This document shows, in pieces, positions 22,766 to 58,439 of a DNA stretch of 64,000 bases. This stretch comes from an uncultured bacterium. GTDB lineage: Bacteria; Fidelibacterota; Marinisomatia; SCGC-AAA003-L08; JACNLC01. Below the pieces are notes generated by a model, which was given only the letters and a program-made list of their open reading frames with translations, was not told the DNA's origin and did not search any database. Location: positions 129,276 to 193,275 of the forward strand of contig CAZGNZ010000001.1 of the NCBI GenBank assembly GCA_964527215.1, given 5' to 3'. The position numbers and the translations under genes are program-made. How positions within the stretch are numbered: position 1 is the stretch's first letter; each line of letters begins with the position of its first letter.

Positions 22766-22814
22766 TTCCTACCGAGCAACTGTATCGCTGTATTAAATTT
22801 ATCGACTATTTTTT

Positions 22815-38901: not shown

Positions 38902-38915
38902 GGTTGAATATTCCT

Positions 38916-40895: not shown

Positions 40896-40920
40896 GGTTT
40901 TTCCTTCATGATTGTTGATT

Positions 40921-41385: not shown

Positions 41386-41404
41386 CAACAATAAACTATA
41401 AAGT

Positions 41405-41814: not shown

Positions 41815-44800
41815 CTACTTCAGCAGCATAACCTTTCTGGATTCTGTGACGGTTTCCGTGATCAAACGTATGATGTAGACACCGCTTGCCTGACCGGAAG
41901 CATCCCAGTTCATGGAATGATATCCAGCCGGCATATTTCCACTGAACAGAGAGGTGATTTCCCTTCCCATGGCATCGTAAACGATAATTTCCAGTCTGCT
42001 GTCCTCAGGCAAGGAGAAATCAACAGTAGTGACAGGGTTGAAGGGATTGGGATATGCAGCGCTGAGTGCAAACTCATCCGGGATGGAATTCACCACCGCA
42101 AACACACCGTTGCCGCTCCAGTCGGCAGTCAGCATGGTTTCAACCTGAACAAGACCGGTATAATACAATAGGATATCTTCAGTCTCACTGCCGTTGGTGT
42201 TTACACCGACCAGGCGGGTATCTGAATGATCAACCAGCCAGCCGTCGGGCAGGTTTGAAGATGTGATTACGAGGTCACCCTGGAAACTGATTTCAAAACC
42301 GGCAATTTCCCCGTCAGACGTGATTTTCATCTCTCCGCCGCCAACCTGCAGCTGAGCTTCTGAAACAGGATTTAGACGCAAAACGTCATTACCAAGGATG
42401 TGGGCGACCACAGCCACAACATCCAGAATATCAATGGCTCCGTCTCCGTTCCAGTCACCTGCATAATCAATATAACTGGTGTGTTCCAAGTGACCCAGAA
42501 TTACACTGACAATCTGAACAATATCAAGAATGTCAATATTGAAATCGCCGTTCACATCACCGGCATCACCCACCATCACTGATTCCAGAGGTGAATTTTC
42601 GGACTCATTCTCATGAACATCCGTAGCCGTGATTGAATACATGTACTCACCGCCTGACGACAGGCCAACATCCTGAAAACTGCTGGTGGCGCTGTAGCCG
42701 ATCAACTCACCGTTTCGGTAGACTGTGAAATACTGAAAATCCGCATCCTGCGGCTCATCCCAGCTGATTTCAACAGACTGATTTCCATAGACTGCCAGGA
42801 ATCCGGACGGAACGGTTGGTGCAAGATTGTCGACAGAGTATCCTTCTGCAACGGTGGATTCGTATATCATCCCTGCCTGGGAAATCGAATACACCTGGAA
42901 TGAAGTCAGAGCATTGTCAACAGATGTGGAATCAAACAATGTGGGCACTACCAATGAGTACCGGTCGCTGCCGTCCGCAGGATGATCCCCGACAAGAGTC
43001 CATGTATCATCATAGGCATCATACCGTTTAATCGTATAGAACTCCACCGGGTCAGGCGCGATGCCGTCATTAACAAATGCATCCCAAATCACTTTGACCT
43101 GGCCTCCCTGGTCATTGGGAATATCATCAATTGAGACGATATCGCCATCGAGAGCACCGTTCTGCATGGCGGTTATGGATGCATTCAGCAATGCAACGGT
43201 AAAGGCCGGGTTGTGAATGCCGTAGCTGTGATCATAATACACCATGTCATAGTTGAAAGCGGCCTTCAATTCGGTCAGCGACCATGTTTCATCCACATCG
43301 TCATGGGGATCATAATGAGTTGTGTCGTCGGAATGGGGCAGCATGGCTCCTAATATGTCAAGGAGTCCGTGAACCTCGTGCTGCAGCCCTTCAGGTGTGC
43401 CGTCGCCGTCAAGATCCGCATTGCCGTCAACATAAAACATTTTTTCATCAAATGAATCACCCACATCACCGTGACAGTCAGTGCAGATGGCTACATTGTC
43501 AACGCCCTCTTCCGTAACAACCGAGAATGAATGCCCGCCGACCAGCAGCGAATGTCCTTCATCATCGGTCATCGGCGAACCCATATGACATGACGTGCAT
43601 GAATTCTCAATGCCGGCCAGATGAGGTGAGGTGGGCAGATCAAGTCCAAAAGTGATCGCATTGGTTGCCGCCAGCATATCTGCCTGCGGAACATAATGCG
43701 GACCGTAATGTGAATGCGGCTCATCGGAGTAGGAGTCTGCGTCACGGCGGCCTTGATGACAGTTCATGCAAAGCTTTCCGGATCCGCCCTGGGTGACCAT
43801 TTCTCCGTTGTTCAGCTCAACATCCGCCAGAGTACGTATCTGATACATGTTTTCAGCACTGTGCGGTTCATGACAGGTGGCACAGGTGATCGGCATATAA
43901 CTGGGATCGAAATCGGGATCATCGGTTTCAACGCCGTCAACATACTGTATAAATCCGGTTCCGGTATGACATCTGACACAGCTTTCCCTGCCGGGTCCGG
44001 TCGGGTATGATGTGGGTGCTGCATGACCGGAAATATCCCACTGCTCCGGATATACATGATAATGACCGTCATCGTGGCAGTAGGCACAATTTGCGGATTC
44101 CAGGTTGGATACCATGCGGTTATCGGACGTTTGACCCATATGAGCACTGCCCGGTCCATGACAGCTTTCACACTGAATCCGACCCAGCTGCATTGCATCA
44201 GGGTAAAAATCATAAAGCAGATCAAACACACCCGGGAAGAGATGACCGTCCTCTGAGCCGTAATTGTCAACCAGATCAGCCGAGTCAGGAAATACAAATT
44301 CCCAGTCATCAAATCCATCGTTATCCGCATAAATATCGTGACCGGTTGTATGGCAGTCCAGACAGTAGCTGGCATAGTGGTCACTCAGTGTTCCATTCAT
44401 TCCTTCCTCAAAGATGGAGTAGTGACCAGTCATTTCCCATTCCGAATGCTGATCTGAGTGACACATACCGCACAAACCGTCATCTATTCCAATATAGTGG
44501 GCTGCATTAACAGTGACCTCGGCCATAACACCATTATCAGAAAATTCAATAATATATGTACCCTCCAGATCCGGCATGAAAGAAATTACCTGAGTATATT
44601 CATCAGGATTTTCTGAAGGACCCGGTACCGAGGCAGAACCGGCAGGTGCAGACAAAACTGTCCAGACAGGGGCTGTCAGAACAGCATCGGATGTACCCTG
44701 AAGGAACATGGTGGTTTCAACACCGACATTCAATAATCCCGTATATCGATACTCATATATGTCCAACGTATCCAGACCGGCTTCGCGGGGCGAAACACCA

Positions 44801-44883
44801 TATGGTTCCACAGTTACTGTCTGTGACAGCAGGACAGTGAACATGCATATTATTACAATTGGTAGCAGTGGTGCATTTTTCAT
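41815..44883 (-). CDS. Cell-surface multihaem cytochrome c: 9 CxxCH motifs, beta-sandwich/FN3-like region, dockerin-like repeats and a T9SS C-terminal sorting domain
   Basis: It has a signal peptide (MKNAPLLPIVIICMFTVLLSQ) and an AGGAGG Shine-Dalgarno. Motifs are CGMCH, CLDCH, CESCH, CAYCH, CVRCH, CATCH, CMNCH, CTSCH and CTDCH. The dockerin-like pair is DVNGDFNIDILDIVQIV…/DWNGDGAIDILDVVAVV… (nt ~42391-42570). The C-terminal tail (nt ~41818-42084) is …SAAYPNPFNPVTTVDFSLPEDSRLEIIVYDAMGREITSLFSGNMPAGYHSMNWDASGQASGVYIIRLITETVTESRKVMLLK. Confidence 0.9.
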   Translation of the reverse strand: MKNAPLLPIVIICMFTVLLSQTVTVEPYGVSPREAGLDTLDIYEYRYTGLLNVGVETTMFLQGTSDAVLTAPVWTVLSAPAGSASVPGPSENPDEYTQVISFMPDLEGTYIIEFSDNGVMAEVTVNAAHYIGIDDGLCGMCHSDQHSEWEMTGHYSIFEEGMNGTLSDHYASYCLDCHTTGHDIYADNDGFDDWEFVFPDSADLVDNYGSEDGHLFPGVFDLLYDFYPDAMQLGRIQCESCHGPGSAHMGQTSDNRMVSNLESANCAYCHDDGHYHVYPEQWDISGHAAPTSYPTGPGRESCVRCHTGTGFIQYVDGVETDDPDFDPSYMPITCATCHEPHSAENMYQIRTLADVELNNGEMVTQGGSGKLCMNCHQGRRDADSYSDEPHSHYGPHYVPQADMLAATNAITFGLDLPTSPHLAGIENSCTSCHMGSPMTDDEGHSLLVGGHSFSVVTEEGVDNVAICTDCHGDVGDSFDEKMFYVDGNADLDGDGTPEGLQHEVHGLLDILGAMLPHSDDTTHYDPHDDVDETWSLTELKAAFNYDMVYYDHSYGIHNPAFTVALLNASITAMQNGALDGDIVSIDDIPNDQGGQVKVIWDAFVNDGIAPDPVEFYTIKRYDAYDDTWTLVGDHPADGSDRYSLVVPTLFDSTSVDNALTSFQVYSISQAGMIYESTVAEGYSVDNLAPTVPSGFLAVYGNQSVEISWDEPQDADFQYFTVYRNGELIGYSATSSFQDVGLSSGGEYMYSITATDVHENESENSPLESVMVGDAGDVNGDFNIDILDIVQIVSVILGHLEHTSYIDYAGDWNGDGAIDILDVVAVVAHILGNDVLRLNPVSEAQLQVGGGEMKITSDGEIAGFEISFQGDLVITSSNLPDGWLVDHSDTRLVGVNTNGSETEDILLYYTGLVQVETMLTADWSGNGVFAVVNSIPDEFALSAAYPNPFNPVTTVDFSLPEDSRLEIIVYDAMGREITSLFSGNMPAGYHSMNWDASGQASGVYIIRLITETVTESRKVMLLK

Positions 44884-45593: not shown

Positions 45594-48095
45594 TCAGAAA
45601 AAGGTGCCCACGATAATCAGTGTCAGAAGCAGGAAACCAACGATCAGGAAAATCGCACCAATAATCAGCAGAAGCTTTTTTAATACGGGATGGGTGGGGT
45701 TTATCAGGGCTTCCTGATATTCAGAATCACTGAGGAGGTTTTTTTCTCTGGGCCGCTCTTTGGCGAATCTTTCCTCTGTTACCCGGCCTGTGAATATGAC
45801 TTCATCCATGGGGAATGCGCCCGGGCGCAGATGGGTGTTGAAAAAATGCACCGTAAAAATGAATGCAGTTGCAAGCAGAGCTTCTTCCGAATGGATAATA
45901 TGCGCGGCATTGATCAGCCAGCCGGGAAATGCCCGTGCAAACTGTTCCGGAAACCAGAGTGTCAGACCGCTGATTCCAATAACAATCATGCCCCAGAAAA
46001 CTGCAAAGTAATCGAATTTTTCCCAGTATGTCCAGCGGCCGAACTCCGGTTCTTTTTTCCGCAATCCGATGAAATAAGCCAGATGATTGAAGAAATCAGA
46101 AAAATCCTGGAGATTTGGTACTAAACTGTCAGGTCCCCAGAACAGTCCTTTTTGTTTTCTCACTGTCGCTTTATAGATCAGCATGAATACATGGATGAAC
46201 ATAACGACAAACAGAATTACTGCAGCCACCCGGTGAGCCAATGCGGCAGCATGAAATCCGACAATATTGTGAACAAACCAGTTTGCCATCTCTGAATGAC
46301 TGTATTTTAGAGGCAGACCGGTTCCTGCCAGCACCAGAAACCCACCGGCCATGAAAAAGTGAAGAATTCGGTCGAACAGGTTGAATCTCTTTACGCGACG
46401 GCTGGTTTTTGGAGGAGGATGGATGGGGCCGTGTCTTAACCTGTGGATCATGAGTCGAATAAGCCAGAGCAGTGTATGGCCGCCAAATACAACAAACACG
46501 CCGCCAAGGAGCCAGATCATAAACAGATGTATGCCGTGAAGGACAGGGTTTTCCTTCTCAGTCATTGGAGTGTAATGTTCCAGATACTGAACAAAATTCT
46601 CACTGACATTTTCATGGCACTGGCTGCAGGTTTCAATAATGCGTTCTTTTCCTATACTGGAGGCCGGGTGATCGGAAGGCAGAATTGAATGATTGTCGTG
46701 ACAGGAGACACAGGTGGCAAATTCTTCACCCTGATATCCCAGCTGATACATTTGACCGTGATAAGATGTGTTGTATCCTTCCACGACATGTGCGTTCAGC
46801 TGAAATTTCATGGTTAGACTGCGGTCCGCATGGCAGCGGCTGCAAAGGTCAATGGTGGATTGTCCGATGAATTTCTCATCCGATTTCTGGATTCTGCGTT
46901 CATCGTGACACTCGATACAGCCCGGAGCTTCAAAATGACCCTTTTGTCTGGCGATATAATGAGAGGACTGCTCGTATTCTTTCTGCACGTCCGGATGACA
47001 GTCCGCGCAGGATTTTTCCAGAGCCTGGTCCTGGGAATGCTCCGGTGCCATGTAGTGATATGTATGGCAGTCTCCGCAGTTGGAGGCTTCCCCGTTTGCT
47101 ATTTTCTCCAGTTCGGTTCTGTGAATAATACCATGGGCATCATTTTCACCAATGATAAGATCCTGCCCGTGGCAGCGAATACAGACACGGTCCAGTTCGA
47201 TATCAAACACCGTGGTTCGAGTGGTACCCACCATTTCGGTCTCATGACCGGTGTGACATACAACACACGTTGTCATTCGGGGATCCTCAAGGCGGTCCGG
47301 CTGGTGGATGGATGCTTCATAGCCGGAATGACACTTCGTACAGACCATATCCAGTCTTGCAACAGACACTCGACTGTCCGGATCACGCGGGGAGAGTACT
47401 TTGTGGCTGGCGTGACAGTCAGAGCATATAGGCGCTTCAAGATTGCCCTGAGTCAGCTGTTCATAATGCCCGCTGTTGAAGTAGTTTTCAACGTTTTCCC
47501 GGTGACAGATTCGGCAGGATTCCGCGAGGTGAATTTTCCATCCAAATTCGGTATACTGCTGCTTTTCATGCTTATTGTGCGGTGAATGGCAGGAGACGCA
47601 GGTGACATCACCGGTCTGGGTGTCTTCATGCCAGTGTGCTGACTGCAGGAACTCATCCAGGATATCCTGATGACAGGTTCCGCAGACCTGCCGCGGCTGA
47701 CCTTGCCAACTGACTTTATGAGCTCCGTGGCAGTCAGAACAAGTCGGCAAAGCGGTATATCCTTTTGCCCGCAGCGGAGCGAAAAATCCGTCTATGAACT
47801 CTTCCTGGGCATCTTCATGACAGATACCGCAGTCAGGTATGATCAGACGTTCTTCATGAGGGAAATCATCTATGCCGTCTAAATCTTCATGACAGTCAAT
47901 GCAATCAAAGTCCTCATGCGGGGTTCCTGATAAATGATCCGATGTCACATGCAGAGACACTTCCACACCATGTTTCACTTGTGAGAGTTTCTCATCGTCA
48001 TGACAGGCTTCACAGGTTTCATTGTCCTGCATTAGAACTGGGGTCGTTAAAATTCCGACAAGACCGGCAAACAGCAGAATTCTATTCCGAAGCAT
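45594..48095 (-). CDS. Fusion protein: 17-haem cytochrome c plus C-terminal membrane b-type cytochrome domain (second CbcL-like paralog)
   Basis: It has a signal peptide and 17 CxxCH motifs by hand count (CEACH … CSQCH). TM helices with conserved His follow (…GIHLFMIWLLGGVFVVFGGHTLLWLI…RILHFFMAGGFLVLAGTGLPLKY…AHRVAAVILFVVMFIHVFMLIY…HIIHSEEALLATAFIFTVHFFNTHL…). Confidence 0.85.
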   Translation of the reverse strand: MLRNRILLFAGLVGILTTPVLMQDNETCEACHDDEKLSQVKHGVEVSLHVTSDHLSGTPHEDFDCIDCHEDLDGIDDFPHEERLIIPDCGICHEDAQEEFIDGFFAPLRAKGYTALPTCSDCHGAHKVSWQGQPRQVCGTCHQDILDEFLQSAHWHEDTQTGDVTCVSCHSPHNKHEKQQYTEFGWKIHLAESCRICHRENVENYFNSGHYEQLTQGNLEAPICSDCHASHKVLSPRDPDSRVSVARLDMVCTKCHSGYEASIHQPDRLEDPRMTTCVVCHTGHETEMVGTTRTTVFDIELDRVCIRCHGQDLIIGENDAHGIIHRTELEKIANGEASNCGDCHTYHYMAPEHSQDQALEKSCADCHPDVQKEYEQSSHYIARQKGHFEAPGCIECHDERRIQKSDEKFIGQSTIDLCSRCHADRSLTMKFQLNAHVVEGYNTSYHGQMYQLGYQGEEFATCVSCHDNHSILPSDHPASSIGKERIIETCSQCHENVSENFVQYLEHYTPMTEKENPVLHGIHLFMIWLLGGVFVVFGGHTLLWLIRLMIHRLRHGPIHPPPKTSRRVKRFNLFDRILHFFMAGGFLVLAGTGLPLKYSHSEMANWFVHNIVGFHAAALAHRVAAVILFVVMFIHVFMLIYKATVRKQKGLFWGPDSLVPNLQDFSDFFNHLAYFIGLRKKEPEFGRWTYWEKFDYFAVFWGMIVIGISGLTLWFPEQFARAFPGWLINAAHIIHSEEALLATAFIFTVHFFNTHLRPGAFPMDEVIFTGRVTEERFAKERPREKNLLSDSEYQEALINPTHPVLKKLLLIIGAIFLIVGFLLLTLIIVGTFF

Positions 48096-48261: not shown

Positions 48262-48310
48262 AAGTAAAAATGCCATACCTGTTCAGGAAAACAGGTATGG
48301 CATTTTTTTC
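48262..48310. terminator. Strong bidirectional-looking hairpin terminator between the c554-like gene and the 833-aa gene
   Basis: The perfect 14-bp stem ATGCCATACCTGTT (48270-48283) / AACAGGTATGGCAT (48290-48303) is flanked by an A-run and a T-run. On the minus strand it follows the stop at 48328. Confidence 0.8.
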
Positions 48311-48327: not shown

Positions 48328-48912
48328 TTATTTCTTTTTATCCTCCGGTGTGGGATGAGCGACTTCTTTGATACGCTCAGCAAAAACGAACTTTTTATAG
48401 GTCGGGCTTTTTTCATTGTGACAGGATATGCAAAGAGCTTCATTTGGTTCAATGAGACCCACAGAAGCGCCGTCAGTAGTGCCGACCGTAATGGCCTTCA
48501 TCACTTTTTTAGATTTATATTCACTGCCCGGACCGTGACAGCCTTCGCAGCCGACGCCTTTCAAACCGGTCATCCGCTTGACATCCTTGGTGGGCTTGCC
48601 TTTGTCCGTTGTCTGGGCCCAGAACTTTTCATCCTTCACCTCGAACCCGCCTGATCCAAAACCAGTCGCATGACAGGAGAGACATTCAGGTGCCTGCCAG
48701 GCCGGTACATTCAGTTTCATCTCTTCTGCAATCTTCTTTGACTGTTCGGATTTCAGGGTTTCCATTGCACCAATATGCAGACCTTTTTCCCAGGCACCAA
48801 ACTGGTGTTTATGGCACATTTTGCATTTGGCTGAACCAACATATTCAAACTTTGCATCCTGTGCCCACATGAATGGTACACAGAGCAAAAAAAGTATCCA
48901 AAATCGTTTCAT
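48328..48912 (-). CDS. Tetrahaem cytochrome c, cytochrome c554-like
   Basis: MKRFWILFLLCVPFMWAQ is a signal peptide, followed by …VGSAKCKMCHK…W…H. Motifs are CKMCH, CLSCH, CEGCH and CISCH. I trimmed the start from the track (49026) to the ATG at 48912, which gives a proper signal peptide. Confidence 0.85.
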   Translation of the reverse strand: MKRFWILFLLCVPFMWAQDAKFEYVGSAKCKMCHKHQFGAWEKGLHIGAMETLKSEQSKKIAEEMKLNVPAWQAPECLSCHATGFGSGGFEVKDEKFWAQTTDKGKPTKDVKRMTGLKGVGCEGCHGPGSEYKSKKVMKAITVGTTDGASVGLIEPNEALCISCHNEKSPTYKKFVFAERIKEVAHPTPEDKKK

Positions 48913-48938
48913 AACTAACTTCCTCACTTTTTCATCCG

Positions 48939-49370
48939 TTAGAAAATGGGATTTTCCGCCCCATGGCACTGATGGCAGCCCATGGCAACTGGTCCATCGC
49001 TGTTTAGACTGTGGCACTGCCAGCATGTTTCCGCCTGGTCCTCGGAACCGTTGGGATCCATCCCTGCGCCGTGAAAATCATCAGTTCCGGATCTCAGATG
49101 ATCGATGGTACCCGGGTGGCCGCTGGCACCTCCGGCATGACACATGGTACATGAAACACCGGAATGTCCGCCATCCAGAAAAGTACCGTGACAGGTCTTG
49201 CATGACTCGAGTCCTTCCCAACCACGGGTCGCAAGCATCTGGCCGTGAAAATCAACACTGTTTTGATTCATCCAGGTGTCGCTGTGGGTATCTGGCTGAA
49301 CAGATTCAGTACAGGACCAGAAGCTCAGAGCGGTGACGATCAAAATGGTTAACGCGGTATATCTTTTCAT
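48939..49370 (-). CDS. Small tetrahaem cytochrome c lipoprotein
   Basis: MKRYTALTILIVTALSFWSC is a lipobox-type signal. Motifs are CKTCH, CTMCH, CWQCH and CHQCH. A GGAGG Shine-Dalgarno sits 6 nt upstream. The start was trimmed from the track (49466), and it lies directly after the upstream stop. Confidence 0.85.
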   Translation of the reverse strand: MKRYTALTILIVTALSFWSCTESVQPDTHSDTWMNQNSVDFHGQMLATRGWEGLESCKTCHGTFLDGGHSGVSCTMCHAGGASGHPGTIDHLRSGTDDFHGAGMDPNGSEDQAETCWQCHSLNSDGPVAMGCHQCHGAENPIF

Positions 49371-49371
49371 A

Positions 49372-50199
49372 TTAACCTCCATGACAGCGTTGGCAGTAGT
49401 GCGGCTGATGACAGGACTGACATACTTCGGGTGTGGATTCTGCGGCATCTGCATGCATTCCCGCATTGCCGTTGATTATGCCCCAGGTTGTCAGATTGTG
49501 ATCGGCTGGCATAATCATCCGCTGTATGTGACAGGACTGACAGTCATTTTCAATTTGATGGCAGGTCATGCATTCAACTGCATCCAGCCGGGCTTCCAAT
49601 CCGTGAGCCACAATATAGGCCGGTGGATGAGTACTTTTTTCAAAACCCGAATGGTGATGACAGTCATCGCAGAATTTTTCCGTATGGCACATGCTGCAGC
49701 TGGCGGCCTGCGGGTGATTGACGGACAGACCGTGGTCCTCATCCCAGGTGATGTCATGGCTGGCAGGTTCATGTGACTGATGGCATTGTGAACAGGCTGC
49801 CCTTGGCCATGGCTGGCGCAGCGCTTCACCGTCATCTGAGGTGATTCCGCTGTGGCAGGTTTCACAATTTGGTGTGGATGGCCGGTGTGCGGCATGGGAA
49901 AAGTCCACGCCGGATGTGGATCCCATCAGGGGATATGTGTCGGCCTCATCCACATTGGAATGGCATAGTTCACATTCATCTTCCACATCGTGACATTCGG
50001 AGCAGAAATCCATATCCGGCAGATATCCCGGTGTGAGAGATTCAGAGTCTGAAACACCGCTGTGACAGTAGTCGCAGGATAGTTCGACATCCGTAATATG
50101 AAGATCATGCGGAAATATGATGTGATCCGGATCCATTGAGAATCCGTAAGCCGCTAACAAGCTGACTGTCAGCAATGCTTTACAGAGTATACGAAACAT
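49372..50199 (-). CDS. Periplasmic 11-haem cytochrome c (c3/c7-type packing)
   Basis: MFRILCKALLTVSLLAAYG is a signal peptide. There are 11 CxxCH motifs in 275 aa (CDYCH, CSECH, CELCH, CETCH, CSQCH, CSMCH, CDDCH, CMTCH, CQSCH, CQSCH, CQRCH). A GGAGG Shine-Dalgarno precedes the gene, which overlaps the barrel-gene 3' end by 20 nt. Confidence 0.85.
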   Translation of the reverse strand: MFRILCKALLTVSLLAAYGFSMDPDHIIFPHDLHITDVELSCDYCHSGVSDSESLTPGYLPDMDFCSECHDVEDECELCHSNVDEADTYPLMGSTSGVDFSHAAHRPSTPNCETCHSGITSDDGEALRQPWPRAACSQCHQSHEPASHDITWDEDHGLSVNHPQAASCSMCHTEKFCDDCHHHSGFEKSTHPPAYIVAHGLEARLDAVECMTCHQIENDCQSCHIQRMIMPADHNLTTWGIINGNAGMHADAAESTPEVCQSCHQPHYCQRCHGG

Positions 50200-51358
50200 T
50201 GATACCTCCTCGACCGTCTTCATCATAATATGGGTTTTCAATATACATTCCATATACCTGGAAACTGAGATGGGCACAGGGTCTCCAGTTCAGTCTCAGC
50301 TGGGCACCAATGGTGTCCCGGGCTTCTATCAGATCGTCATAATCATAAGAATTCAGCGAGATACCCGCATTGGCACTGATGGTTTGGGTGATGTGTCGAT
50401 TTAATCCGGCAAACCAGCCAAGATTCTGATAATCACCGGATTGGCTGCTGATCAGACCAAACTGCAGACAGCGCCACTGAATGCTGCTGCTGAAACCCAT
50501 ATTGGTATCATCAGACATGCGGTATATCAGGCGATTGTACAGGGCAAACTCTGCAATCCTGCTTTGTACTCCAGCAGACAGCGTGGGGGCGACCAGAAGG
50601 TCTTCATCCAGTCCCGGGAATACATTTTCCGTGAAAATCTGACGCTGTTTTAAACTCAAAATCAATTCATGCTGATTGAACTGCCGGCTGAGTCTGAAAC
50701 GCATTGAATGGATATTTTCATCAGTCACATTGAATGAAAATTTGGCCCGGTAGCTGAAGGAAAGCAAATTCCGGCCGTTCAGTGAACCGCCGATAATCAG
50801 TGGGTCATCCAGTTCATCGTTGTCATACAGATAACTGATTACATTCAATCCAAATCCCATTCCACCGTCAGTTCCGGCTGTCCAGTCGGCTGCCATAAAC
50901 ATGGTTGGATCTTCTTCGGTCTCTGCAAACTGCGGGATCGATCCACCGCTCACTCCCAGCTTGCCGAATTTTCCCAGACACATGCTGTAACGGGCGCCGT
51001 CATACTTGGTGTTCGCAAATGAATTCCAGTAGTTGAGCCGCCCCAGATTCAATGTGCCGAATTTGCTGTACAGGGAAACATCAGCACTGTGAATCTGAAA
51101 TTCGTCGGTAAAGCGGTAATTCGGGGAGCCGTAGGACAAATCGGTTTTAAAGGAAACAAGACTGCCGTAGGACTGCTGATAGGATAGAAAGGTCCGGTAG
51201 TGAACAGTGTCATCCAGTGCATCTGAGCGGTACAGGTCGCCGGAGGTGTCGTTGAACATGTTCAGCCGGGGGGTGATCATGCTTTGGGTGATCGTGAGAT
51301 TCGGACCTCCGGCAAATCCAATCCCCGCAATGATGAGCAATACAAAAATTCTTTTCAT
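50180..51358 (-). CDS. Outer-membrane beta-barrel (porin-like) protein
   Basis: It has a signal peptide (MKRIFVLLIIAGIGFAGG). Alternating-polarity strands rich in Y/G/S/N run throughout (…YGSLVSFKTDLSYGSPNYRFTDEFQIHSADVSLYSKFGTLNLGRLNYW…). There are no Cys or haem motifs. The start was trimmed from the track. Confidence 0.7.
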   Translation of the reverse strand: MKRIFVLLIIAGIGFAGGPNLTITQSMITPRLNMFNDTSGDLYRSDALDDTVHYRTFLSYQQSYGSLVSFKTDLSYGSPNYRFTDEFQIHSADVSLYSKFGTLNLGRLNYWNSFANTKYDGARYSMCLGKFGKLGVSGGSIPQFAETEEDPTMFMAADWTAGTDGGMGFGLNVISYLYDNDELDDPLIIGGSLNGRNLLSFSYRAKFSFNVTDENIHSMRFRLSRQFNQHELILSLKQRQIFTENVFPGLDEDLLVAPTLSAGVQSRIAEFALYNRLIYRMSDDTNMGFSSSIQWRCLQFGLISSQSGDYQNLGWFAGLNRHITQTISANAGISLNSYDYDDLIEARDTIGAQLRLNWRPCAHLSFQVYGMYIENPYYDEDGRGGINVSYTL

Positions 51359-51443
51359 AATCTCATTCATCAAAAAGGTTGAAAGGGAGCAAACCCACAT
51401 TCATGGCATTTGCTCCCTGAAAAAGTTCGCTTTGGCGAAAGGC

Positions 51444-52394
51444 TTATTCGTAGGTGTAGTCGAACGAACCAGGCCAATTGTGGGATGTCAGATCATCAAA
51501 AATCATTGAATTGACACCAAATTTCAGGCTGGTGGCATCGTAACCGAGAACGGTCAGATAAGCGGTGATCATGGAAGATGTCTGTCCTGTCCAGCAGTAG
51601 GTGACTATGGTTTCATCGGGATTCAGATATTCCATTCCACCGGCGGCCAGGGTCAAGTCTTCTTTTATGCGGTGTGAACCTTCGATATGTCCGTAAAGAT
51701 CGACATCGGAAGCTCCCCAGTAGTTATTGATAAAATAAGCACCGGGATCATCCAGAACATCGCTGTACAAAATACCTTTGAATCCACCGGCCAGCATGGC
51801 TTCCACCCGCTCCTCAAGCAGGGCAGCACCATCAGCTGTGGAAGATTCCCAGTCAGGATAACCATATTCCATATCACTGGCGATATTGATGGATCCGGGA
51901 TATACCCAGGTATCATAACCGGATGCGCCATAACCCGTTTTACTGGACCAATTATCAAAATCAGAATGCCAGCTGCTCATTCCAAATTTCAGGACCTGAG
52001 CGCTGTAGCCCATGAGGCGCAGTGCCACAACAGCATGTCCGGCGGATTGCCCGGTATAGCAGACCACCAGAATATCTTCGCTGCCGGCGGGTTCGGCATC
52101 GTCAAGAATGGTGGCCAGTGAGCCATTGTGGGCTCCCGGGATATGACCGGTAGCAAAGACTTCAGCACTGCGGATATCAATGATGTAATAATCTTCAGGC
52201 AGACGGGCCAGATTCACCGCATCAGCAGCGACAATCCAGTCGGCCAGAATATCATCCATATCCATGTTATTGGCTTCCAGATAGGTCATCAGCGTGTTGA
52301 AATCACCTTTGTCGTCATCATCATCATCGGAACATCCGCTGAAGATGAACAGGCTCAGCACCAGTAACGGCAGGATATATTTCAAGCTTTTCAT
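51444..52394 (-). CDS. Periplasmic/outer-leaflet lipoprotein with two rhodanese (sulfurtransferase) domains
   Basis: It has a lipobox (LSLFIFSGC) and a poly-Asp linker. There are two GlpE-type active-site loops: …ILVVCYTGQSAGHAV… and …IVTYCWTGQTSSMITA…. Confidence 0.8.
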   Translation of the reverse strand: MKSLKYILPLLVLSLFIFSGCSDDDDDDKGDFNTLMTYLEANNMDMDDILADWIVAADAVNLARLPEDYYIIDIRSAEVFATGHIPGAHNGSLATILDDAEPAGSEDILVVCYTGQSAGHAVVALRLMGYSAQVLKFGMSSWHSDFDNWSSKTGYGASGYDTWVYPGSINIASDMEYGYPDWESSTADGAALLEERVEAMLAGGFKGILYSDVLDDPGAYFINNYWGASDVDLYGHIEGSHRIKEDLTLAAGGMEYLNPDETIVTYCWTGQTSSMITAYLTVLGYDATSLKFGVNSMIFDDLTSHNWPGSFDYTYE

Positions 52395-52435: not shown

Positions 52436-54046
52436 TCAGTTTACATGACAGGCCGATGTGCCGCACTCACCGCCGGCGGTGGGCATCACCGTCATGTTTG
52501 CTTCAATTTCATTCGGGTAATTGTTTTCAATGTAATCCATTGTGAGATAGATATCTTTATTTGCGGGATCACTATAGGTGTCCCCGGTATGATAATGACA
52601 GTTGGCGGCACAGGTTGTACCGTCGTAAAGAGGGGTATCACTTTCCGCCCAGGCATCATCCACCAGTGTCTGAGCAGTCCACTTGCGAACGTTGTGAGGG
52701 CTGGTGTATTCCCAGGTTTCAAACTGATTAAAATGGTTTTCCGGAAGTTCAGTCAGTCCGACTCCCCAGGCATCATAGGTATCTCGGGCAACAGGAATAT
52801 GCCTGACAAGGACCCAGCGGCTGTCGGCGTGTGCCAGCAGTGAGGGTGAGTAGTCTCCGGTGGGGTCATCGTGAGCCGGATTGTAGCCAATGCGAAATTC
52901 AGGATATTCAAGATAATCCCCGGCACCGGAATTGACATCGTCCTGACCGGCTACCGGACCGTAGCCGTCTTTCCAGATACCGGTTGTATGACAGTTATTA
53001 CAGTTATAATAAGGTTGTGAATGACAAACATAGCATGAAATATCATCGGCAAAATTATCACCGGGCCAATGTGCCTGGTGGTATAGGTTGCTGTCCGCCA
53101 GCGAAGGGCTGTGACATGCTGCATCGGTACACGTAGGCAGATCGTTGACAGTATACCGTGAGATGGGAGGATTGGCAAGTTCCGTTCCATCCCCGTGCAA
53201 ATCTTCATTGTGACAGGCCGTACAGGTATATCCTTTTCCCAGATGGACATCTTTCAGATTGCCAGTGATGCCGTCGTCGTCACCTTCATCGCCGAAATAA
53301 TCGACACCGATCCGGCTGCCGTGACAGGCGGTGCAGTTGTTTCGGAGCTCAGGTTCTCTTTTAAACTCATGATCTGCGAGAAAACCGCCGTGGACCGATT
53401 CCGGTCGACTGACATGACACTGACCGCAGGTGGTGTGACAGCTACCGCATTCACCTTCAAATTCTGCTTCCACCTCAGGATGATTGGAGAGATCCGGTTC
53501 ACCAAATGCACGCATTCCCACTTTGAATCTTTCACCCCAGAGTTTGGTGTGCATACTGTGTTCGTTCCGCTCAACAATATCCGTATGGCACAGACCGCAG
53601 GTTTCTTCAGGTGCGGCAGAAGGATCGCGTATCATTTCGGTATGTGCCAGTTCCATTGCGGCATGCCGGTCTTCCGAAGAAGTGGAAGCCGCCGTCACAA
53701 ACTGGGTTCCGCCGTGACAGCCGGCACAGCCAAGAACGGCATGGGTGGGATCAACATCATCAAATCCGGATTCGGAACTTTTCAAATCAATGAAAACTTT
53801 TTCCCAGGGTGCCAACGGCACCACAGCTCCGCCTCAGCCACCGCCACCGGCAGTTCCGCCACCCTCGTCAGGTGCAAGTTGCTGAAGTACTGCCTCATTG
53901 ATATGGCAGCTTTCGCAGGAAAAATCAAGGGTGTCGACATCAGTCTGTCCGACAGGATCGATTTTTTCACACGCTGAATATATTAAAAGCACCGGCGCAA
54001 TCCACAGCAGGATCAAAAACCCGGGCATCAACGAGGATCGATTCAT
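52436..54046 (-). CDS. Lipoprotein multihaem cytochrome c (9 CxxCH, 1 CX3CH and 2 CX4CH motifs) interrupted by one in-frame TGA at 53834-53836
   Basis: The 70-aa ORF (lipobox LLIYSAC, CESCH) and the 462-aa ORF (no signal peptide, 8 CxxCH) share one frame. They read …GGGTAGGGG-TGA-GGAVVPLAPWEK…. The ATG overlaps the MerR stop as ATGA. The gene is intact only if the UGA is recoded or read through; otherwise it is a pseudogene. Confidence 0.6.
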
Positions 54047-54489
54047 TTTCTGACCTCTTTGTTAGTGAATTCAAAGATTTGCTTAAGATGACCAACTTCA
54101 ATTGCAAGCCTATATACTTCGCACTTGTGACAGTCTGCATTCTGACATGTCTCACCGGTTACCTCCTGTGCCCAGCAAACCGTGTCGTTGGACATATAGG
54201 CAGGGCATTCAAGACGCTCCTCTTCTCCGCATGGCTTGATATTCCAGCACGGGATGAGTGCCAGCAAACGTCTGATACCGGCAATATTCAATTTGTTTTC
54301 CGTGATCTGACGCCGAATACATGCGATCCATTCCAAATCTATCTCGGAATACAATCGCCGCCCGGTTTCAGTACGATGGGGGATGAGCAGACCTTCCCGT
54401 TCATACAATCGCAAAGTTTCCGGAGAAATATCGAATTTTCTGGAAACCACACCGATTGTGTACAATGGTTCACTGGGATCCATCTTCAT
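54043..54489 (-). CDS. MerR-family transcription regulator with a C-terminal Cys-rich two-CW-like domain (paralog 2)
   Basis: The HTH is …YTIGVVSRKFDISPETLRLYEREGLLIPHRTETGRRLYS…. The tail is …LALIPCWNIKPCGEEERLECPAYMSNDTVCWAQEVTGETCQNADCHKCEVYR…. An AGGTGG Shine-Dalgarno lies upstream. Confidence 0.8.
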   Translation of the reverse strand: MKMDPSEPLYTIGVVSRKFDISPETLRLYEREGLLIPHRTETGRRLYSEIDLEWIACIRRQITENKLNIAGIRRLLALIPCWNIKPCGEEERLECPAYMSNDTVCWAQEVTGETCQNADCHKCEVYRLAIEVGHLKQIFEFTNKEVRK

Positions 54490-55346: not shown

Positions 55347-58300
55347 TCAGCGCAGGTCGAACAGGGATTCGCTGAAATTCAGGTGGAAGGTAACATACAG
55401 ACGGTTCAGCTGCTGGTCCAGACTGGAGAAATCAGGATCTTCATATTTGAGGAAAGTATATCCCAGTCCCAGCTGCATATCCTGGCGCAGGAGGTAGTTC
55501 AGCTCAAGTGCCGTTCCTAATTTCTGCTCATCTGTTGCATCCATCCATATGGTTCTCAAATCAAGAGCAGTGCTCCAGCGGGGAGTTATATCGAGTTCCG
55601 GACGCACATAAAAATAGGCAGTACCGTTCCAGTCACTGAACAGGTCACCGGACTCGTCCAGTATTCGGCGGTATGCCAGCCGGCTGCTGAAGGACCAGCG
55701 CTGAACGGGCTGGCAGTGCATGTTCAAGGCTGTGATCAGTCTGTCGGACCGGATTTCCGGATCCACATGCGTGTTCCTGTCAGTGATATACTCCAACTTG
55801 CCAACCATATTCCAGATATCCGACATCTCGGGACGGTATGCAAGTCCTGCCTGAATCCTGCCGCGTATGATGTATTCATCAATTTCTTTTCGGTAGTCGG
55901 TGCGGGTATGCTCGGTTTTTGCCAGAAGGCTCAGTCCTGCCATCATCCGGAAAGAACCCGCCACTCCGTAAATTCGCTTCAATGTTGTTTCATTCCGTCT
56001 GTTTTCGAATTTACCGGTCAGTTTATAGGGGGCTTCCGGGAAATACTCAAACGACATGGATACAGCATCATGCTCCGGTACCGGAGTCTGGAAATCATCA
56101 AATGTGGCTGTATTCTCGTATGCCAGATTGAAGGTCAGATCATCTCTGACGGACCATTTATTCCGCAACCCGATTGACGCCCGGGAACGGTTTTCACCCA
56201 GTGCACCGCCAATCTCATATTTGCCGTCAATCTGCATGTTCTCGCTGACCTTGGATTCCAGGCCAAATATGGTTTCACTGGCTTTGTCAGAGTGGTCTAC
56301 CAGACGGTGTTTGAAGAATATCCTGACTTTTTCGCTGACAGTGTATCCCAGACCCAGCAACAGACTGTTGGGTTTGGCTTTATCATCAGTATTCAGGTTC
56401 GAATATGTTTCCAGGCTGCCGTCCAGAGCATCTGAAAAGCGGTACGCCAGCTCTGAAGTCAACACAGATGATATCCGCTCATCGGTTGTACCGTCCGATT
56501 CCATGCGGGTGATGCGGGCATTTTCCAGGCCCAGACTGAGGTGGGTTCGCTCATTCAGCTGGTTATTGATATCGGCGGAAATGACCTCACGGGTTTCTTC
56601 ATCGGCAGTGTGTGCACCATACAGCTCATAATAATAGTCTGTGCTCACTTGTCCGATGACACTGCTGCGGTACTTTGCCGAGAAACCATATTTGGTTGAT
56701 CCTTTTTCGCTTCCGGCGCTGGTTTGAGAATTGTTAACAAAGCTGCTGTCCACATTCCGGTAATATCCGTCCAGTTTCATCGCGGCCGTCGGCTGCCAGG
56801 TGAATTCGGTTTTCCAGGCAGTGCCGTCAAGCTCTTGAGCCATTTCGTCCAGGGAACGGGAGACGGCAGCTTCTGCTTTTACCGCAAGCCTGTCGCTCAT
56901 GGGGATTCTGGCATCCAGCCCGGAAAGCACGAAATTACGAACATCCTGCTCTTCCGTGATGAATGATCCGCCAATATGGTATTTATCCAGGAACAGATTC
57001 TCATATCGAATGCCGCCGACATAGTTTTCTGAAGCATTCTCATCAACTTCGTAGTTCACAACAATGTATATCGGGTTACCGTTTCCGTCTACTGCCGGTA
57101 CAGGCTGTTTGAACATCAGTGTGCCGTTTTCGTAATCGATATCATAATCCGTGTATCTCAGTGCCCGTTTGGATTCCAATACACGTTCAGAATGATATTT
57201 GTCCCGGGTTTCAATGGAAACATGTTCGGAGAAGCGAATCAGTTCGCGGCTGCTGAGATTGTAGTACCCCGAAATACCCTCGCCCATGATTCGGTCAAGA
57301 ACCAGACTGTGGTCGGATTTGGAGATAAACCCGGTCAGACGGCTGTTATCCCAGTTCAGATCAGTCGTCAAACCAGTGAATGTACGGTTGTAGGCGGTGA
57401 ATTCTGTGGATCCCATATCGGCGGTAAAGTCACCCAGCAGCAGATGGCTGCCGTCCTTTTCGATCCTGGCGTAAAGTTTTGACTGTGCCTGTGCATCATA
57501 CTCCAGAGTACCTGCGTCACCGTAAATGGGATACTGGCTGTCCAGTTCAAAATCATCCATAAACTGATCTTCACGGTTACGGTCTGAATCGAAAGACGCA
57601 CTGATATGGATGTCATCACTCACCGTCCCTGCAGCATACAATGCTGTCCGGCCCTTCATTTTCGCATCGCCGCTCTCAAAGACAGTTCCCTGCTTATCCA
57701 TGGGATCCATGTCTGCCAGCATGTTAATGTCATTTTCACCGTTGGTTTGGGACAGTGAACCGTTTGCCATCCCCACCAGAATAAACGGTTCTGCCGGCAC
57801 CTCGTATTTGACGGGGTACTGGTGATAGTGGCCGTTCAGGGAAATTTCCAGGATTCCGGTGCCGGGATGATCAGCAGCCTGGATGGTCAGAGAAAGGAAT
57901 CCGTTTTCTATCTTCACCTGATGCCCTGTGGAGATGCTGTCTGCATCGGCTTCTGCCAGCCAGCCGTTTGTCAGTGAGACAGTGGCAATCTTGATGTGAT
58001 CAATGCGGTATCCCCAGTCATCCTGAATTTCAAAACGTACCTCCTGACTGGCAAATCCATCTGCCGGGAGCACGATTTCACTGATTTCCGAATGGAGCTG
58101 ACTGGGTGCACCCAGCACGTGAATTGTGCGGGTAGTGGTCATGGTCATTCCGGTTTTCATTTTGGACTGCAGCTTCAGCTCAATGGGGCCCGACGGGACT
58201 TCCACATTGATAAAGTCATACAGGCCGTCACCCCGGACTTCAGCCGAATCAACGAAAGTATCATTGATCAGAAGAGTGGCCGGAGTTCCCGGTTTACCGG

Positions 58301-58439
58301 CAATCGTTACCGCGATCCGATGCAGTTTTGTCACCGAACCCTCCAGAGGATATACCACCATCACCTGGGCGTTGATCCATGCCGTCAGCAGGAAAGCGCC
58401 GGTGAAAAGCAGGTTAATATGTCTGAAGAGTTTCCGCAA
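55347..58439 (-). CDS. Very large (1030 aa) outer-membrane beta-barrel protein with N-terminal Ig-like domains
   Basis: It has a signal peptide (MRKLFRHINLLFTGAFLLTAWINAQ) and N-terminal beta-sandwich-like segments. About 750 aa of alternating barrel-type strands follow (…YRSSVIGQVSTDYYYELYG…, …LGLGYTVSEKVRIFFKHRL…, …TALELNYLLRQDMQLGLGYTFLKY…). The TTG start lies 2 nt after the upstream stop. Confidence 0.7.
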   Translation of the reverse strand: MRKLFRHINLLFTGAFLLTAWINAQVMVVYPLEGSVTKLHRIAVTIAGKPGTPATLLINDTFVDSAEVRGDGLYDFINVEVPSGPIELKLQSKMKTGMTMTTTRTIHVLGAPSQLHSEISEIVLPADGFASQEVRFEIQDDWGYRIDHIKIATVSLTNGWLAEADADSISTGHQVKIENGFLSLTIQAADHPGTGILEISLNGHYHQYPVKYEVPAEPFILVGMANGSLSQTNGENDINMLADMDPMDKQGTVFESGDAKMKGRTALYAAGTVSDDIHISASFDSDRNREDQFMDDFELDSQYPIYGDAGTLEYDAQAQSKLYARIEKDGSHLLLGDFTADMGSTEFTAYNRTFTGLTTDLNWDNSRLTGFISKSDHSLVLDRIMGEGISGYYNLSSRELIRFSEHVSIETRDKYHSERVLESKRALRYTDYDIDYENGTLMFKQPVPAVDGNGNPIYIVVNYEVDENASENYVGGIRYENLFLDKYHIGGSFITEEQDVRNFVLSGLDARIPMSDRLAVKAEAAVSRSLDEMAQELDGTAWKTEFTWQPTAAMKLDGYYRNVDSSFVNNSQTSAGSEKGSTKYGFSAKYRSSVIGQVSTDYYYELYGAHTADEETREVISADINNQLNERTHLSLGLENARITRMESDGTTDERISSVLTSELAYRFSDALDGSLETYSNLNTDDKAKPNSLLLGLGYTVSEKVRIFFKHRLVDHSDKASETIFGLESKVSENMQIDGKYEIGGALGENRSRASIGLRNKWSVRDDLTFNLAYENTATFDDFQTPVPEHDAVSMSFEYFPEAPYKLTGKFENRRNETTLKRIYGVAGSFRMMAGLSLLAKTEHTRTDYRKEIDEYIIRGRIQAGLAYRPEMSDIWNMVGKLEYITDRNTHVDPEIRSDRLITALNMHCQPVQRWSFSSRLAYRRILDESGDLFSDWNGTAYFYVRPELDITPRWSTALDLRTIWMDATDEQKLGTALELNYLLRQDMQLGLGYTFLKYEDPDFSSLDQQLNRLYVTFHLNFSESLFDLR

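What the first reader, a model, noticed from the sequence alone, without database searches (positions are those of the whole stretch)
48328..52394. Porin-cytochrome-like module in Geobacter Pcc gene order, but with a tandem-rhodanese lipoprotein in front
Seen in the sequence, in minus-strand order:
1. A tandem-rhodanese lipoprotein with two Cys active-site loops, CYTGQS and CWTGQT.
2. A ~392-aa beta-barrel with no haem motifs.
3. An 11-haem Sec-exported cytochrome of 275 aa, overlapping the barrel gene by 20 nt.
4. A 4-haem lipoprotein of 143 aa, starting 1 nt after the previous stop.
5. A c554-like tetrahaem protein.
6. A strong terminator.

Established knowledge: Geobacter Pcc clusters are ordered porin-like OmbB, then periplasmic OmaB, then lipoprotein OmcB, and form trans-outer-membrane conduits. 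Periplasmic rhodaneses such as Wolinella Sud deliver polysulfide sulfur to respiratory enzymes.

Inference: this is a compact trans-outer-membrane haem wire. The rhodanese hints that the extracellular or periplasmic substrate is a sulfur species (S0, polysulfide or thiosulfate) rather than, or as well as, metals. That pairing is not part of the described Pcc/Mtr systems.
Basis: partly seen in the sequence, partly recalled or inferred. Interest (0 to 1): 0.75.

Follow-up and report, generated by a model that had tools for sequence, protein, structure and literature searches.

The report
Selenocysteine cytochrome, rhodanese and porin-cytochrome operon
The porin-plus-cytochromes module is real, but its rhodanese is really the fixed partner of an overlooked selenocysteine-containing multihaem cytochrome just upstream, so the operon looks like a sulfur-directed electron conduit, similar in layout to Geobacter ExtHIJKL but built from unrelated parts.

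Summary
AlphaFold2 predicts the barrel as a plug-less 22-strand barrel. Its gene overlaps that of an 11-haem cytochrome related to the GSU1996 'nanowire' cytochrome, so a porin-cytochrome conduit is plausible.

It encodes an 11-haem lipoprotein cytochrome with an in-frame TGA in a G-x-G-U-G-G motif.
- The TGA is kept in 77 of 82 related loci from several phyla.
- Cys replaces it in three homologues.
- A covarying SECIS-like hairpin follows it.

All 78 assessable Sec/Cys-type loci have a rhodanese gene next to this cytochrome. The 3 loci without Sec/Cys have none. The barrel and its cytochromes are present in only 31 of 70 loci.

The claim that a rhodanese pairing is undescribed is wrong. Geobacter ExtHIJKL has a rhodanese lipoprotein, a porin and the selenocytochrome MccSep, a polysulfide reductase. 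However, the barrel here is unrelated to ExtI, and the selenocytochrome is not of the ExtKL family.

Verdict: a new variant of a known kind. The selenocytochrome family appears undescribed. Substrate, direction of electron flow and topology are inferred, not shown.

The parts
54043..54489 (-). MerR-family regulator with a Cys-rich C-terminal half. Its stop overlaps the next gene's start (ATGA).
   Evidence: Pfam MerR_1, E 5e-18. Homologues of 44-69% identity sit directly upstream of the Sec-cytochrome in about 25 Marinimicrobia-type loci.
52436..54046 (-). Lipoprotein multihaem cytochrome read through an in-frame TGA (Sec at residue 71, motif GGGG-U-GG). It has 11 family-conserved haem motifs, including one CX4CH and one CX3CH.
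   Evidence: The part after the TGA has 10 haem motifs but no signal peptide. It has 2352 homologues and relatives in at least 579 species genomes. There is no ExtKL/NCBIfam match.
53834..53836 (-). In-frame TGA, a candidate selenocysteine codon.
   Evidence: Conserved in 77 of 82 non-redundant related loci. Cys occupies the position in P0021, L037 and L042. TGA is otherwise the commonest stop codon in the window.
53808..53822 (-). SECIS-like hairpin (GGUGCC-GUU-GGCACC) whose stem begins 12 nt after the UGA.
   Evidence: 78% of cells are paired. There are 57 double-sided changes against 19 +/- 3 in shuffles (0 of 500 reach the observed value), and fewer in slid controls. The fold energy alone is not exceptional (z -0.03).
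51444..52394 (-). Tandem-rhodanese lipoprotein with two catalytic-type loops (CYTGQS, CWTGQT) and an acidic run after the lipid-anchor Cys.
   Evidence: Pfam. Both loops and the acidic N-terminus are conserved across the family. A rhodanese gene lies next to the Sec-cytochrome in 78 of 78 assessable Sec/Cys-type loci.
50180..51358 (-). 22-strand outer-membrane beta-barrel without a plug, belonging to a small unannotated family.
   Evidence: AlphaFold2 pLDDT 88.6. There are 47 representatives among 1.84 billion proteins. No Pfam family is shared by its 36 members. The nearest solved structures are 24-strand usher barrels.
49372..50199 (-). Secreted 11-haem cytochrome built of c7-type repeats. 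Its start overlaps the barrel gene by 20 nt.
   Evidence: The family profile hits PDB 3ov0 (from memory, GSU1996) at E 3e-29. Relatives carry 11 or 12 haems and lie directly after the barrel gene.
48939..49370 (-). Small tetrahaem lipoprotein.
   Evidence: Its homologues vary from 4 to 25 haems between loci.
48328..48912 (-). Secreted c554-like tetrahaem cytochrome.
   Evidence: Pfam PF13435, E 1e-16. Relatives are 44-60% identical.
48266..48307 (-). Intrinsic-terminator-like hairpin that ends the operon.
45594..48095 (-). 17-haem cytochrome fused to a cytochrome b561/FdnI-type membrane domain (CbcL-like candidate quinol dehydrogenase).
   Evidence: Pfam PF01292 plus multihaem families, 17 CxxCH. 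It is 59-68% identical in syntenic loci.

Best explanation
This is a MerR-headed operon that joins two units.

Unit A is a lipoprotein 11-haem cytochrome plus a tandem-rhodanese lipoprotein. The cytochrome carries one selenocysteine on a glycine-flanked flexible segment (G-x-G-U-G-G). I propose that the rhodanese binds or mobilises sulfane sulfur (polysulfide, S0-derived persulfide or a related chalcogen). The Sec then attacks it to form a Se-S adduct, and the haems reduce the adduct to sulfide.

Unit B is a porin-cytochrome conduit. It consists of a plug-less 22-strand barrel that sheathes an 11-haem c7-repeat wire, capped by a small lipoprotein cytochrome. A c554-like shuttle and a CbcL-like quinol dehydrogenase (17 haems plus cytochrome b) encoded just downstream would feed it. 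[quoted passage not shown]

Shown: gene content, conservation, the Sec signature, the rhodanese coupling and the predicted barrel geometry.
Inferred: the substrate, surface exposure, the direction of electron flow and insertion of the cytochrome into the barrel.
For: Selenocysteine:
- The TGA is kept in 77 of 82 loci, and Cys occupies the position in three homologues.
- A covarying hairpin sits at bSECIS-like spacing with G first in the loop (model described in PMC13188914).
- The part downstream of the TGA has 10 haem motifs but no signal peptide, so read-through is needed for export.
- TGA is the commonest ordinary stop codon in the window, 19 of 40 genes.

Coupling to rhodanese:
- A rhodanese gene is adjacent in 78 of 78 assessable Sec/Cys-type loci and in 0 of 3 loci lacking Sec/Cys.
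- Both rhodanese Cys loops are conserved.

Sulfur chemistry by analogy:
- MccSep is a Sec-haem polysulfide reductase encoded next to a rhodanese and a porin.
- SoxY carries sulfur on the Cys of a GGCGG arm.
- There are 11 conserved haem motifs but only 10 conserved non-motif His.

Conduit:
- The barrel is predicted with 22 strands and no plug.
- The barrel and 11-haem genes overlap by 20 nt here, and overlaps also occur in L001 and L204.
- The 11-haem family is related to PDB 3ov0 (from memory, GSU1996).
- The barrel is followed by this cytochrome in 28 of 31 loci; the rest are cut by contig ends.

Surface hint: the rhodanese N-terminus (C-S-D-D-D-D) matches the Bacteroidetes lipoprotein export signal. 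A T9SS-sorted cytochrome is encoded nearby.
Against: - No member of either family has been studied experimentally.
- Unit A occurs without the barrel in 39 of 70 loci, so it does not need this conduit and may be periplasmic.
- MccSep itself is periplasmic.
- The lipoprotein export signal has been tested only in Bacteroidota, and acidic linkers also occur in the Desulfobacterota-labelled loci.
- The AlphaFold2 model of the Sec-cytochrome family is poor (pLDDT 57.7) and has no fold match, so the position of Sec relative to any haem is unknown.
- The hairpin's folding energy is no better than that of shuffled sequence.
- The direction of electron flow cannot be read from sequence.
- No multimer prediction could be run.
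Confidence: 0.5

Rival explanations
1. Periplasmic model. The Sec-cytochrome and the rhodanese face the periplasm. The barrel is a channel that admits polysulfide, thiosulfate or selenite, as proposed for ExtI. The other cytochromes only link the quinol pool to the enzyme.
For: MccSep is periplasmic, and its authors say the route of polysulfide entry is unknown. ExtI was proposed as a selenite/tellurite channel. The Sec-cytochrome and rhodanese pair occurs without any barrel in 39 of 70 loci.
Against: An open 22-strand barrel without a plug is far wider than known solute channels and would need to be occluded. The barrel gene is always followed by, and overlaps, the 11-haem wire gene. The rhodanese carries an export-signal-like acidic N-terminus.
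Confidence: 0.2
2. Oxidative direction. The same hardware takes electrons from reduced sulfur (sulfide, S0 or thiosulfate). The sulfur is carried on the Sec arm as in SoxY, and the electrons pass inward to the quinone pool or to terminal reductases.
For: The G-G-U-G-G motif resembles the SoxY GGCGG carrier arm of a sulfur-oxidising system. Multihaem conduits of the Mto/Pio type run inward (own knowledge). Several related MAGs have isolate names beginning with SI (SI047, SI053); from memory these are from Saanich Inlet, an oxygen-deficient basin, but I did not check this.
Against: The nearest functional precedent, a Sec plus haem enzyme (MccSep), is a reductase. The CbcL-like cytochrome b fusion is known from reductive electron export in Geobacter (own knowledge). 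No Sox, Dsr or Sqr genes were seen in the parts of the window I scanned.
Confidence: 0.15
3. Generic extracellular electron transfer to metals or to the neighbouring T9SS-secreted cytochrome. In this reading the rhodanese and Sec-cytochrome serve another purpose, such as selenium or tellurium handling or detoxification.
For: A 9-haem cytochrome with a T9SS sorting tail and a dockerin is encoded 1 kb beyond the CbcL-like gene. Deleting ExtI impairs selenite and tellurite reduction. MccSep also reduces selenite.
Against: The rhodanese and Sec-cytochrome lie inside the same terminator-bounded operon as the barrel and its cytochromes. They sit between the MerR gene and the barrel gene, and this arrangement is conserved in 30 loci. 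The T9SS cytochrome is only sporadically syntenic.
Confidence: 0.1
4. The TGA is a true stop or a pseudogene lesion, or it is decoded as Gly, so there is no selenoprotein.
For: Gene callers split the gene everywhere. The codon lies within a Gly run. The hairpin energy is unremarkable.
Against: The TGA is kept at the same codon in 77 loci from several phyla, with the protein sequence conserved on both sides. Cys, not Gly, replaces it in homologues. The hairpin covaries. The downstream part could not be exported alone. TGA ends 19 of 40 genes in the window.
Confidence: 0.03

Closest known systems
Geobacter sulfurreducens ExtHIJKL (GSU2940-2936), including MccSep (ExtKL)
   Same: It also combines a rhodanese-family lipoprotein, an outer-membrane barrel and a selenocysteine multihaem cytochrome in one cluster, followed by further cytochromes and a membrane quinol-oxidising module. 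MccSep is a Sec-dependent polysulfide reductase needed for S0 respiration.
   Different: - ExtI is a Porin_O_P-type protein (E 3e-13 for the L153 homologue). The barrel here shows no relation to it (hhalign probability 0.5%).
- The Sec-cytochrome here does not match the ExtKL model NF040886, whereas the control scores 9e-129.
- It has 11 haems against 5, it is a lipoprotein, and its Sec is N-terminal in G-x-G-U-G-G rather than C-terminal in PDGUP.
- ExtH has one catalytic Cys and a C-terminal GGGGC tail; the rhodanese here has two catalytic loops and no such tail.
- The gene order differs.
Geobacter Pcc (OmbB-OmaB-OmcB) porin-cytochrome complexes
   Same: The gene order is the same: barrel, then a secreted multihaem cytochrome, then a lipoprotein cytochrome.
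   Different: The haem counts differ (11 and 4 here; from memory, 8 and 12 in OmaB and OmcB). Homology to OmbB was not tested. This cluster also carries a rhodanese and a Sec-cytochrome.
Shewanella MtrCAB and the MtrB/PioB family
   Same: The concept is the same: a wide barrel sheathing a haem-dense periplasmic cytochrome.
   Different: The barrel does not match MtrB_PioB models. It has 22 strands and 392 aa; from memory MtrB has 26 strands. The 11-haem protein scores only 15.6 bits against the DmsE/MtrA family (cut-off 192). It is a c7-repeat protein related to PDB 3ov0 instead.
SoxY sulfur-carrier arm (GGCGG)
   Same: The reactive chalcogen residue is flanked by glycines on a flexible peptide.
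   Different: In SoxY the motif is C-terminal on a small non-haem carrier. Here it is internal to a multihaem lipoprotein and uses Sec. The resemblance is limited to the motif; there is no SoxY domain match.
Multihaem cytochrome plus rhodanese clusters proposed for sulfur reduction in Dethiobacter alkaliphilus (PMC10376724)
   Same: A multihaem cytochrome (DealDRAFT_1917) is encoded beside rhodanese-domain proteins. That paper says it was 'misidentified as a thiosulfate sulfurtransferase'. JGI gives the same label to several homologues of the Sec-cytochrome here.
   Different: Homology to the family here was not tested because I had no sequence. The paper mentions no selenocysteine and no outer-membrane barrel.
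Geobacter CbcL (own knowledge)
   Same: It is also a multihaem c-type domain fused to a dihaem cytochrome b membrane domain, used as an inner-membrane quinol dehydrogenase for electron export.
   Different: The protein here has 17 haem motifs (from memory, CbcL has 9). Orthology was not tested.

Membership tests
Bacterial selenoprotein (applied to 52436-54046) | An in-frame UGA conserved among orthologues, with conserved protein sequence on both sides | tested here: met
   77 of 82 non-redundant loci
Bacterial selenoprotein (applied to 52436-54046) | Cys-containing homologues aligned with the UGA | tested here: met
   P0021 has PGCGGEVVPL; L037 and L042 have GEGCGG
Bacterial selenoprotein (applied to 52436-54046) | A SECIS hairpin just downstream, with the apical loop 16-37 nt from the UGA and G early in the loop | tested here: met
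   The loop GUU lies 18 nt after the UGA. Covariation is 57 double changes against 19 in shuffles. Energy alone is not significant.
Bacterial selenoprotein (applied to 52436-54046) | selA, selB, selC and selD present in the genome; selenium present in the protein | not testable with these tools
   None of these genes lies in the 64-kb window, and no tRNA was found. The rest of the genome is not available.
ExtHIJKL / MccSep system | Selenocytochrome of the ExtKL family (NCBIfam NF040886: 5 haems, PDGUP motif) | tested here: not met
   No hit for the window protein or for P0021, whereas the L153 ExtK control scores 9e-129
ExtHIJKL / MccSep system | ExtI-type barrel (Porin_O_P) | tested here: not met
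   None of the 36 barrel-family members hits PF07396. hhalign probability is 0.5%. phmmer finds nothing at E <= 10.
ExtHIJKL / MccSep system | A rhodanese-family lipoprotein encoded beside the barrel | tested here: met
   The relation to the ExtH family is distant (hhalign 96.6%, 19% identity) and the active-site layout differs.
MtrAB / PioAB porin-cytochrome | Barrel of the MtrB/PioB family and a periplasmic decahaem cytochrome of the DmsE/MtrA family | tested here: not met
   The barrel hits no model. TIGR03508 scores 15.6 bits against a cut-off of 192.
Geobacter Pcc (OmbB/OmaB/OmcB) | Gene triad of barrel, secreted multihaem cytochrome and lipoprotein multihaem cytochrome | tested here: met
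Geobacter Pcc (OmbB/OmaB/OmcB) | Sequence homology to OmbB, OmaB and OmcB | not tested
   I had no OmbB, OmaB or OmcB sequences
Any porin-cytochrome conduit | The cytochrome is inserted in the barrel lumen and electrons pass across the membrane | not testable with these tools
   No multimer prediction was available. The only support is the barrel geometry (22 strands, no plug).
Tandem-domain rhodanese sulfurtransferase | Two PF00581 domains, each with an active-site Cys loop | tested here: met
   CYTGQS and CWTGQT are conserved family-wide as C[YW][ST]G[QH][ST].

The most novel reading that the evidence does not exclude
The G-x-G-U-G-G lipoprotein cytochrome is an undescribed and very widespread selenoenzyme family. 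It has relatives in at least 579 species-level genomes of Marinimicrobia, Calditrichota, Krumholzibacteriia, Eisenbacteria, Fibrobacterota, Desulfobacterota and Chloroflexota. Its Sec acts either as a SoxY-like swinging-arm carrier or as the sixth ligand of one haem. Together with its obligate rhodanese partner it would catalyse S0/polysulfide respiration (or the reverse). That would make it a second, independent invention of Sec-haem sulfur chemistry alongside MccSep. In Marinimicrobia and Calditrichota it would be wired to the cell surface through a new 22-strand porin-cytochrome conduit.
Probability: 0.35. Interest if true: 0.85.

Novelty: new variant of a known kind. Interest (0 to 1): 0.7.

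Why it matters
Marinimicrobia (SAR406; NCBI phylum Fidelibacterota) are, from my own knowledge, abundant in oxygen-deficient and deep ocean water, and their role in sulfur cycling there is inferred mainly from genomes. A conserved selenocysteine-haem enzyme with an obligate rhodanese partner would give a concrete candidate for S0/polysulfide turnover in these and several other largely uncultured phyla.

The family is annotated today as two split 'hypothetical' genes, or mislabelled as sulfurtransferase. If confirmed, it would add a selenoprotein family to the known set. It would also show that the rhodanese, porin and selenocytochrome layout of Geobacter ExtHIJKL has arisen more than once from unrelated parts.

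A MAG labelled Caldithrix abyssi carries the cluster. That species reduces S0 and thiosulfate by an unassigned route (PMC5317091), which offers a culturable test system.

Tried and rejected
- The word-indexed barrel search found only 3 proteins. Repeating it with a 36-sequence profile found 4, because of the candidate cap.
- The exact barrel protein has no contig on record.
- Cluster look-up gave no names or organism.
- Rfam and tRNA scans of the window found nothing.
- AlphaFold2 of the Cys-type homologue P0021 was poor (pLDDT 57.7) and its Foldseek search found nothing. No geometry for the Sec arm could be obtained.
- The hairpin's folding energy is not better than shuffles. The SECIS argument rests on covariation only.
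- One Pfam call was wasted on a 45-residue fragment.
- I considered filing the cluster as an ExtHIJKL orthologue and rejected this because the barrel and selenocytochrome tests failed.
- I considered UGA decoded as Gly and rejected it (see the rival explanations).
- Most barrel representatives are only 30-40% identical to barrels in the fetched loci. An unbiased survey of barrel contexts was therefore limited to P0002, P0003 and P0167.

Full report
OBSERVATION.
- Tandem-rhodanese lipoprotein, 51444-52394: two PF00581 domains and the loops CYTGQS and CWTGQT.
- Haem-free protein of 392 aa, 50180-51358: no Pfam or NCBIfam match.
- Secreted 275-aa protein with 11 CxxCH, 49372-50199: its start overlaps the previous gene by 20 nt.
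- Lipoprotein of 143 aa with 4 CxxCH, 48939-49370: it starts after a 1-nt gap.
- c554-like tetrahaem protein, 48328-48912: PF13435, E 1e-16.
- Terminator hairpin with a 19-bp stem, 48307-48266.

THE BARREL AND ITS CYTOCHROMES. AlphaFold2 on a 36-sequence alignment gave a confident model of the 392-aa protein (pLDDT 88.6). It has 22 strands, short loops and no plug domain. The nearest solved folds are the 24-strand usher barrels (TM about 0.5), with no specific relative.

The family is tiny, with 47 representatives among 1.84 billion proteins. None of 36 members matches Porin_O_P, MtrB_PioB or any other shared Pfam family.

A profile of the 11-haem family matches PDB 3ov0 at E 3e-29. From memory, 3ov0 is the elongated c7-repeat dodecahaem cytochrome GSU1996. 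The match to MtrA is weak, and the match to the DmsE/MtrA model is far below its cut-off.

A wide empty barrel whose gene is translationally coupled to that of a thin haem wire fits a porin-cytochrome conduit. It fits an open solute channel less well. Insertion of the cytochrome into the barrel could not be tested.

The gene just upstream (52436-54046) is called as two ORFs separated by an in-frame TGA. Read through, it is a 536-residue lipoprotein with the sequence ...CESCH...GGGG-U-GGAVVPLAPWEKV... Eleven of its haem motifs are conserved across the family.

The part after the TGA has ten haem motifs but no signal peptide, so it can be exported and matured only as a read-through product.

A search of one genome per species found at least 579 relatives. 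In the 82 non-redundant loci I fetched:
- The TGA is kept at the same codon in 77, always as G-[GED]-G-U-G-G or P-G-U-G-G-G.
- Cys replaces it in P0021, L037 and L042.
- Three loci have neither Sec nor Cys.

A six-pair hairpin begins 12 nt after the UGA, with loop GUU. It shows 57 double-sided compensatory changes against 19 +/- 3 in shuffles (0 of 500 reach the observed value), and fewer in slid controls. A shifted hairpin occurs in the Krumholzibacteriia-type loci. The spacing and the G at the start of the loop fit the bacterial SECIS model summarised in PMC13188914. The fold energy alone is unremarkable.

TGA is the commonest ordinary stop codon in the window. I conclude that this is a selenoprotein.

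It matches no NCBIfam model, including the ExtKL model, which scores 9e-129 on a control sequence. It has no PDB relative. I did not find it among the haem selenoproteins tabulated in a 2026 review.

THE RHODANESE BELONGS TO THE SELENOCYTOCHROME. Across the fetched loci a rhodanese-domain gene of one, two or four domains lies next to the cytochrome gene in all 78 assessable Sec/Cys-type loci. It is absent from all three loci whose cytochrome lacks Sec/Cys.

The barrel family is present in 31 of 70 assessable loci, of Marinimicrobia and Calditrichota type. It always lies after the rhodanese gene and before the 11- or 12-haem gene.

The rhodanese is therefore firmly syntenic, but the conserved unit is selenocytochrome plus rhodanese. 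The porin-cytochrome module is an add-on found in some lineages. Elsewhere the pair sits beside other cytochromes, cytochrome b and NHL-repeat proteins.

Both rhodanese Cys loops are conserved. The mature N-terminus is typically C-S/E-D-D-D-D, which matches the lipoprotein export signal defined in Bacteroidetes (PMC5080379). That hints at surface exposure, but the signal has not been tested outside that phylum.

COMPARISON WITH WHAT IS KNOWN.
- Geobacter ExtHIJKL encodes a rhodanese lipoprotein, a porin-like protein and a selenocysteine pentahaem cytochrome (PMC6148476; PMC5877670).
- In August 2026 that cytochrome (MccSep) was shown to be a Sec-dependent polysulfide reductase essential for S0 respiration (PMC13510729).

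I fetched ExtKL loci from metagenomes using the Sec-site peptide and tested membership directly.
- The ExtI homologue is a Porin_O_P protein and is unrelated to the barrel here (hhalign probability 0.5%).
- The two rhodanese families are distantly related (96.6%, 19% identity), but ExtH has one catalytic Cys where the rhodanese here has two.
- The selenocytochromes belong to different families.

The window therefore carries an analogue of ExtHIJKL, not an orthologue.

MECHANISM (INFERRED). Quinol would be oxidised by the 17-haem/cytochrome b fusion (45594-48095). Electrons would pass through the c554-like protein and the 11-haem wire inside the barrel to lipoprotein cytochromes. The selenocytochrome would then reduce sulfane sulfur presented by the rhodanese, through a Se-S adduct on its glycine-flanked arm.

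The arm motif recalls the sulfur-carrying GGCGG of SoxY. There are eleven conserved haem motifs but only ten conserved non-motif histidines. This leaves room for a haem that is Sec-ligated or open.

The rival readings are in the rivals section: periplasmic chemistry with the barrel as a channel, the oxidative direction, and metal-directed electron export. None is excluded.

ORGANISM. The closest loci are MAGs labelled Candidatus Neomarinimicrobiota (NCBI Fidelibacterota, FCB group). A T9SS-sorted cytochrome in the window agrees with that group.

VERDICT. This is a new variant of a known kind. It contains what appears to be an undescribed, widespread selenocytochrome family and a new small barrel family.

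Noticed in passing
window 19600-22800: A non-coding stretch holds a unit of about 458 bp repeated about 4.5 times (74% matches), with a further copy near 19.9 kb. The GC skew is strongly negative and there is no Rfam match.
   Followed up: no
window 41815-44883 (-): A 1022-aa protein has 9 CxxCH motifs, a dockerin domain and a T9SS C-terminal sorting domain. It is a secreted or surface cytochrome encoded next to the conduit genes.
   Followed up: partly
window 35620-41391 (-): A second electron-transfer cluster encodes another MerR regulator, a multihaem/cytochrome b fusion, a 4Fe-4S protein, an NrfD/PsrC-type membrane protein and a further multihaem cytochrome.
   Followed up: no
L153 7538-8899 and 10270-10590; also L134, L151, L117, L163 and others: In ExtKL loci, all five full-length ExtH-type rhodaneses end in a Gly-rich tail with a C-terminal Cys (...GGGGC). 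Nine ExtJ-type small proteins end in ...(Q/M/V)GC. These are possible sulfur-carrier arms.
   Followed up: partly
L009, L033, L057: The three homologues of the selenocytochrome that have neither Sec nor Cys at the site are also the only assessable loci with no rhodanese gene nearby. L057 still has the barrel and the 12-haem gene.
   Followed up: yes
L004 14586-17048; L072, L067, L048, L057, L037: The counterpart of the 4-haem lipoprotein varies widely in size. It has 25 haems (820 aa) in L004 and 6-10 haems in Calditrichota-type loci.
   Followed up: no
proteins P0044, P0048, P0055, P0101, P0112, P0118: JGI names several homologues of the selenocytochrome 'thiosulfate/3-mercaptopyruvate sulfurtransferase' although they are multihaem cytochromes. 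A paper on Dethiobacter reports the same mislabel for DealDRAFT_1917.
   Followed up: partly
window 54043-54489 (-): The MerR-family regulator has a C-terminal half with seven Cys, including CHKC. It is conserved at the head of the operon in Marinimicrobia-type loci and may be a redox or chalcogen sensor.
   Followed up: no
window 55347-58439 and 58442-63994 (-): Two very large genes lie upstream of the operon. One encodes 1030 aa with no family match. The other encodes 1850 aa with DUF11, Big_1, CarboxypepD_reg and OmpA domains. Neither is syntenic in related loci.
   Followed up: no
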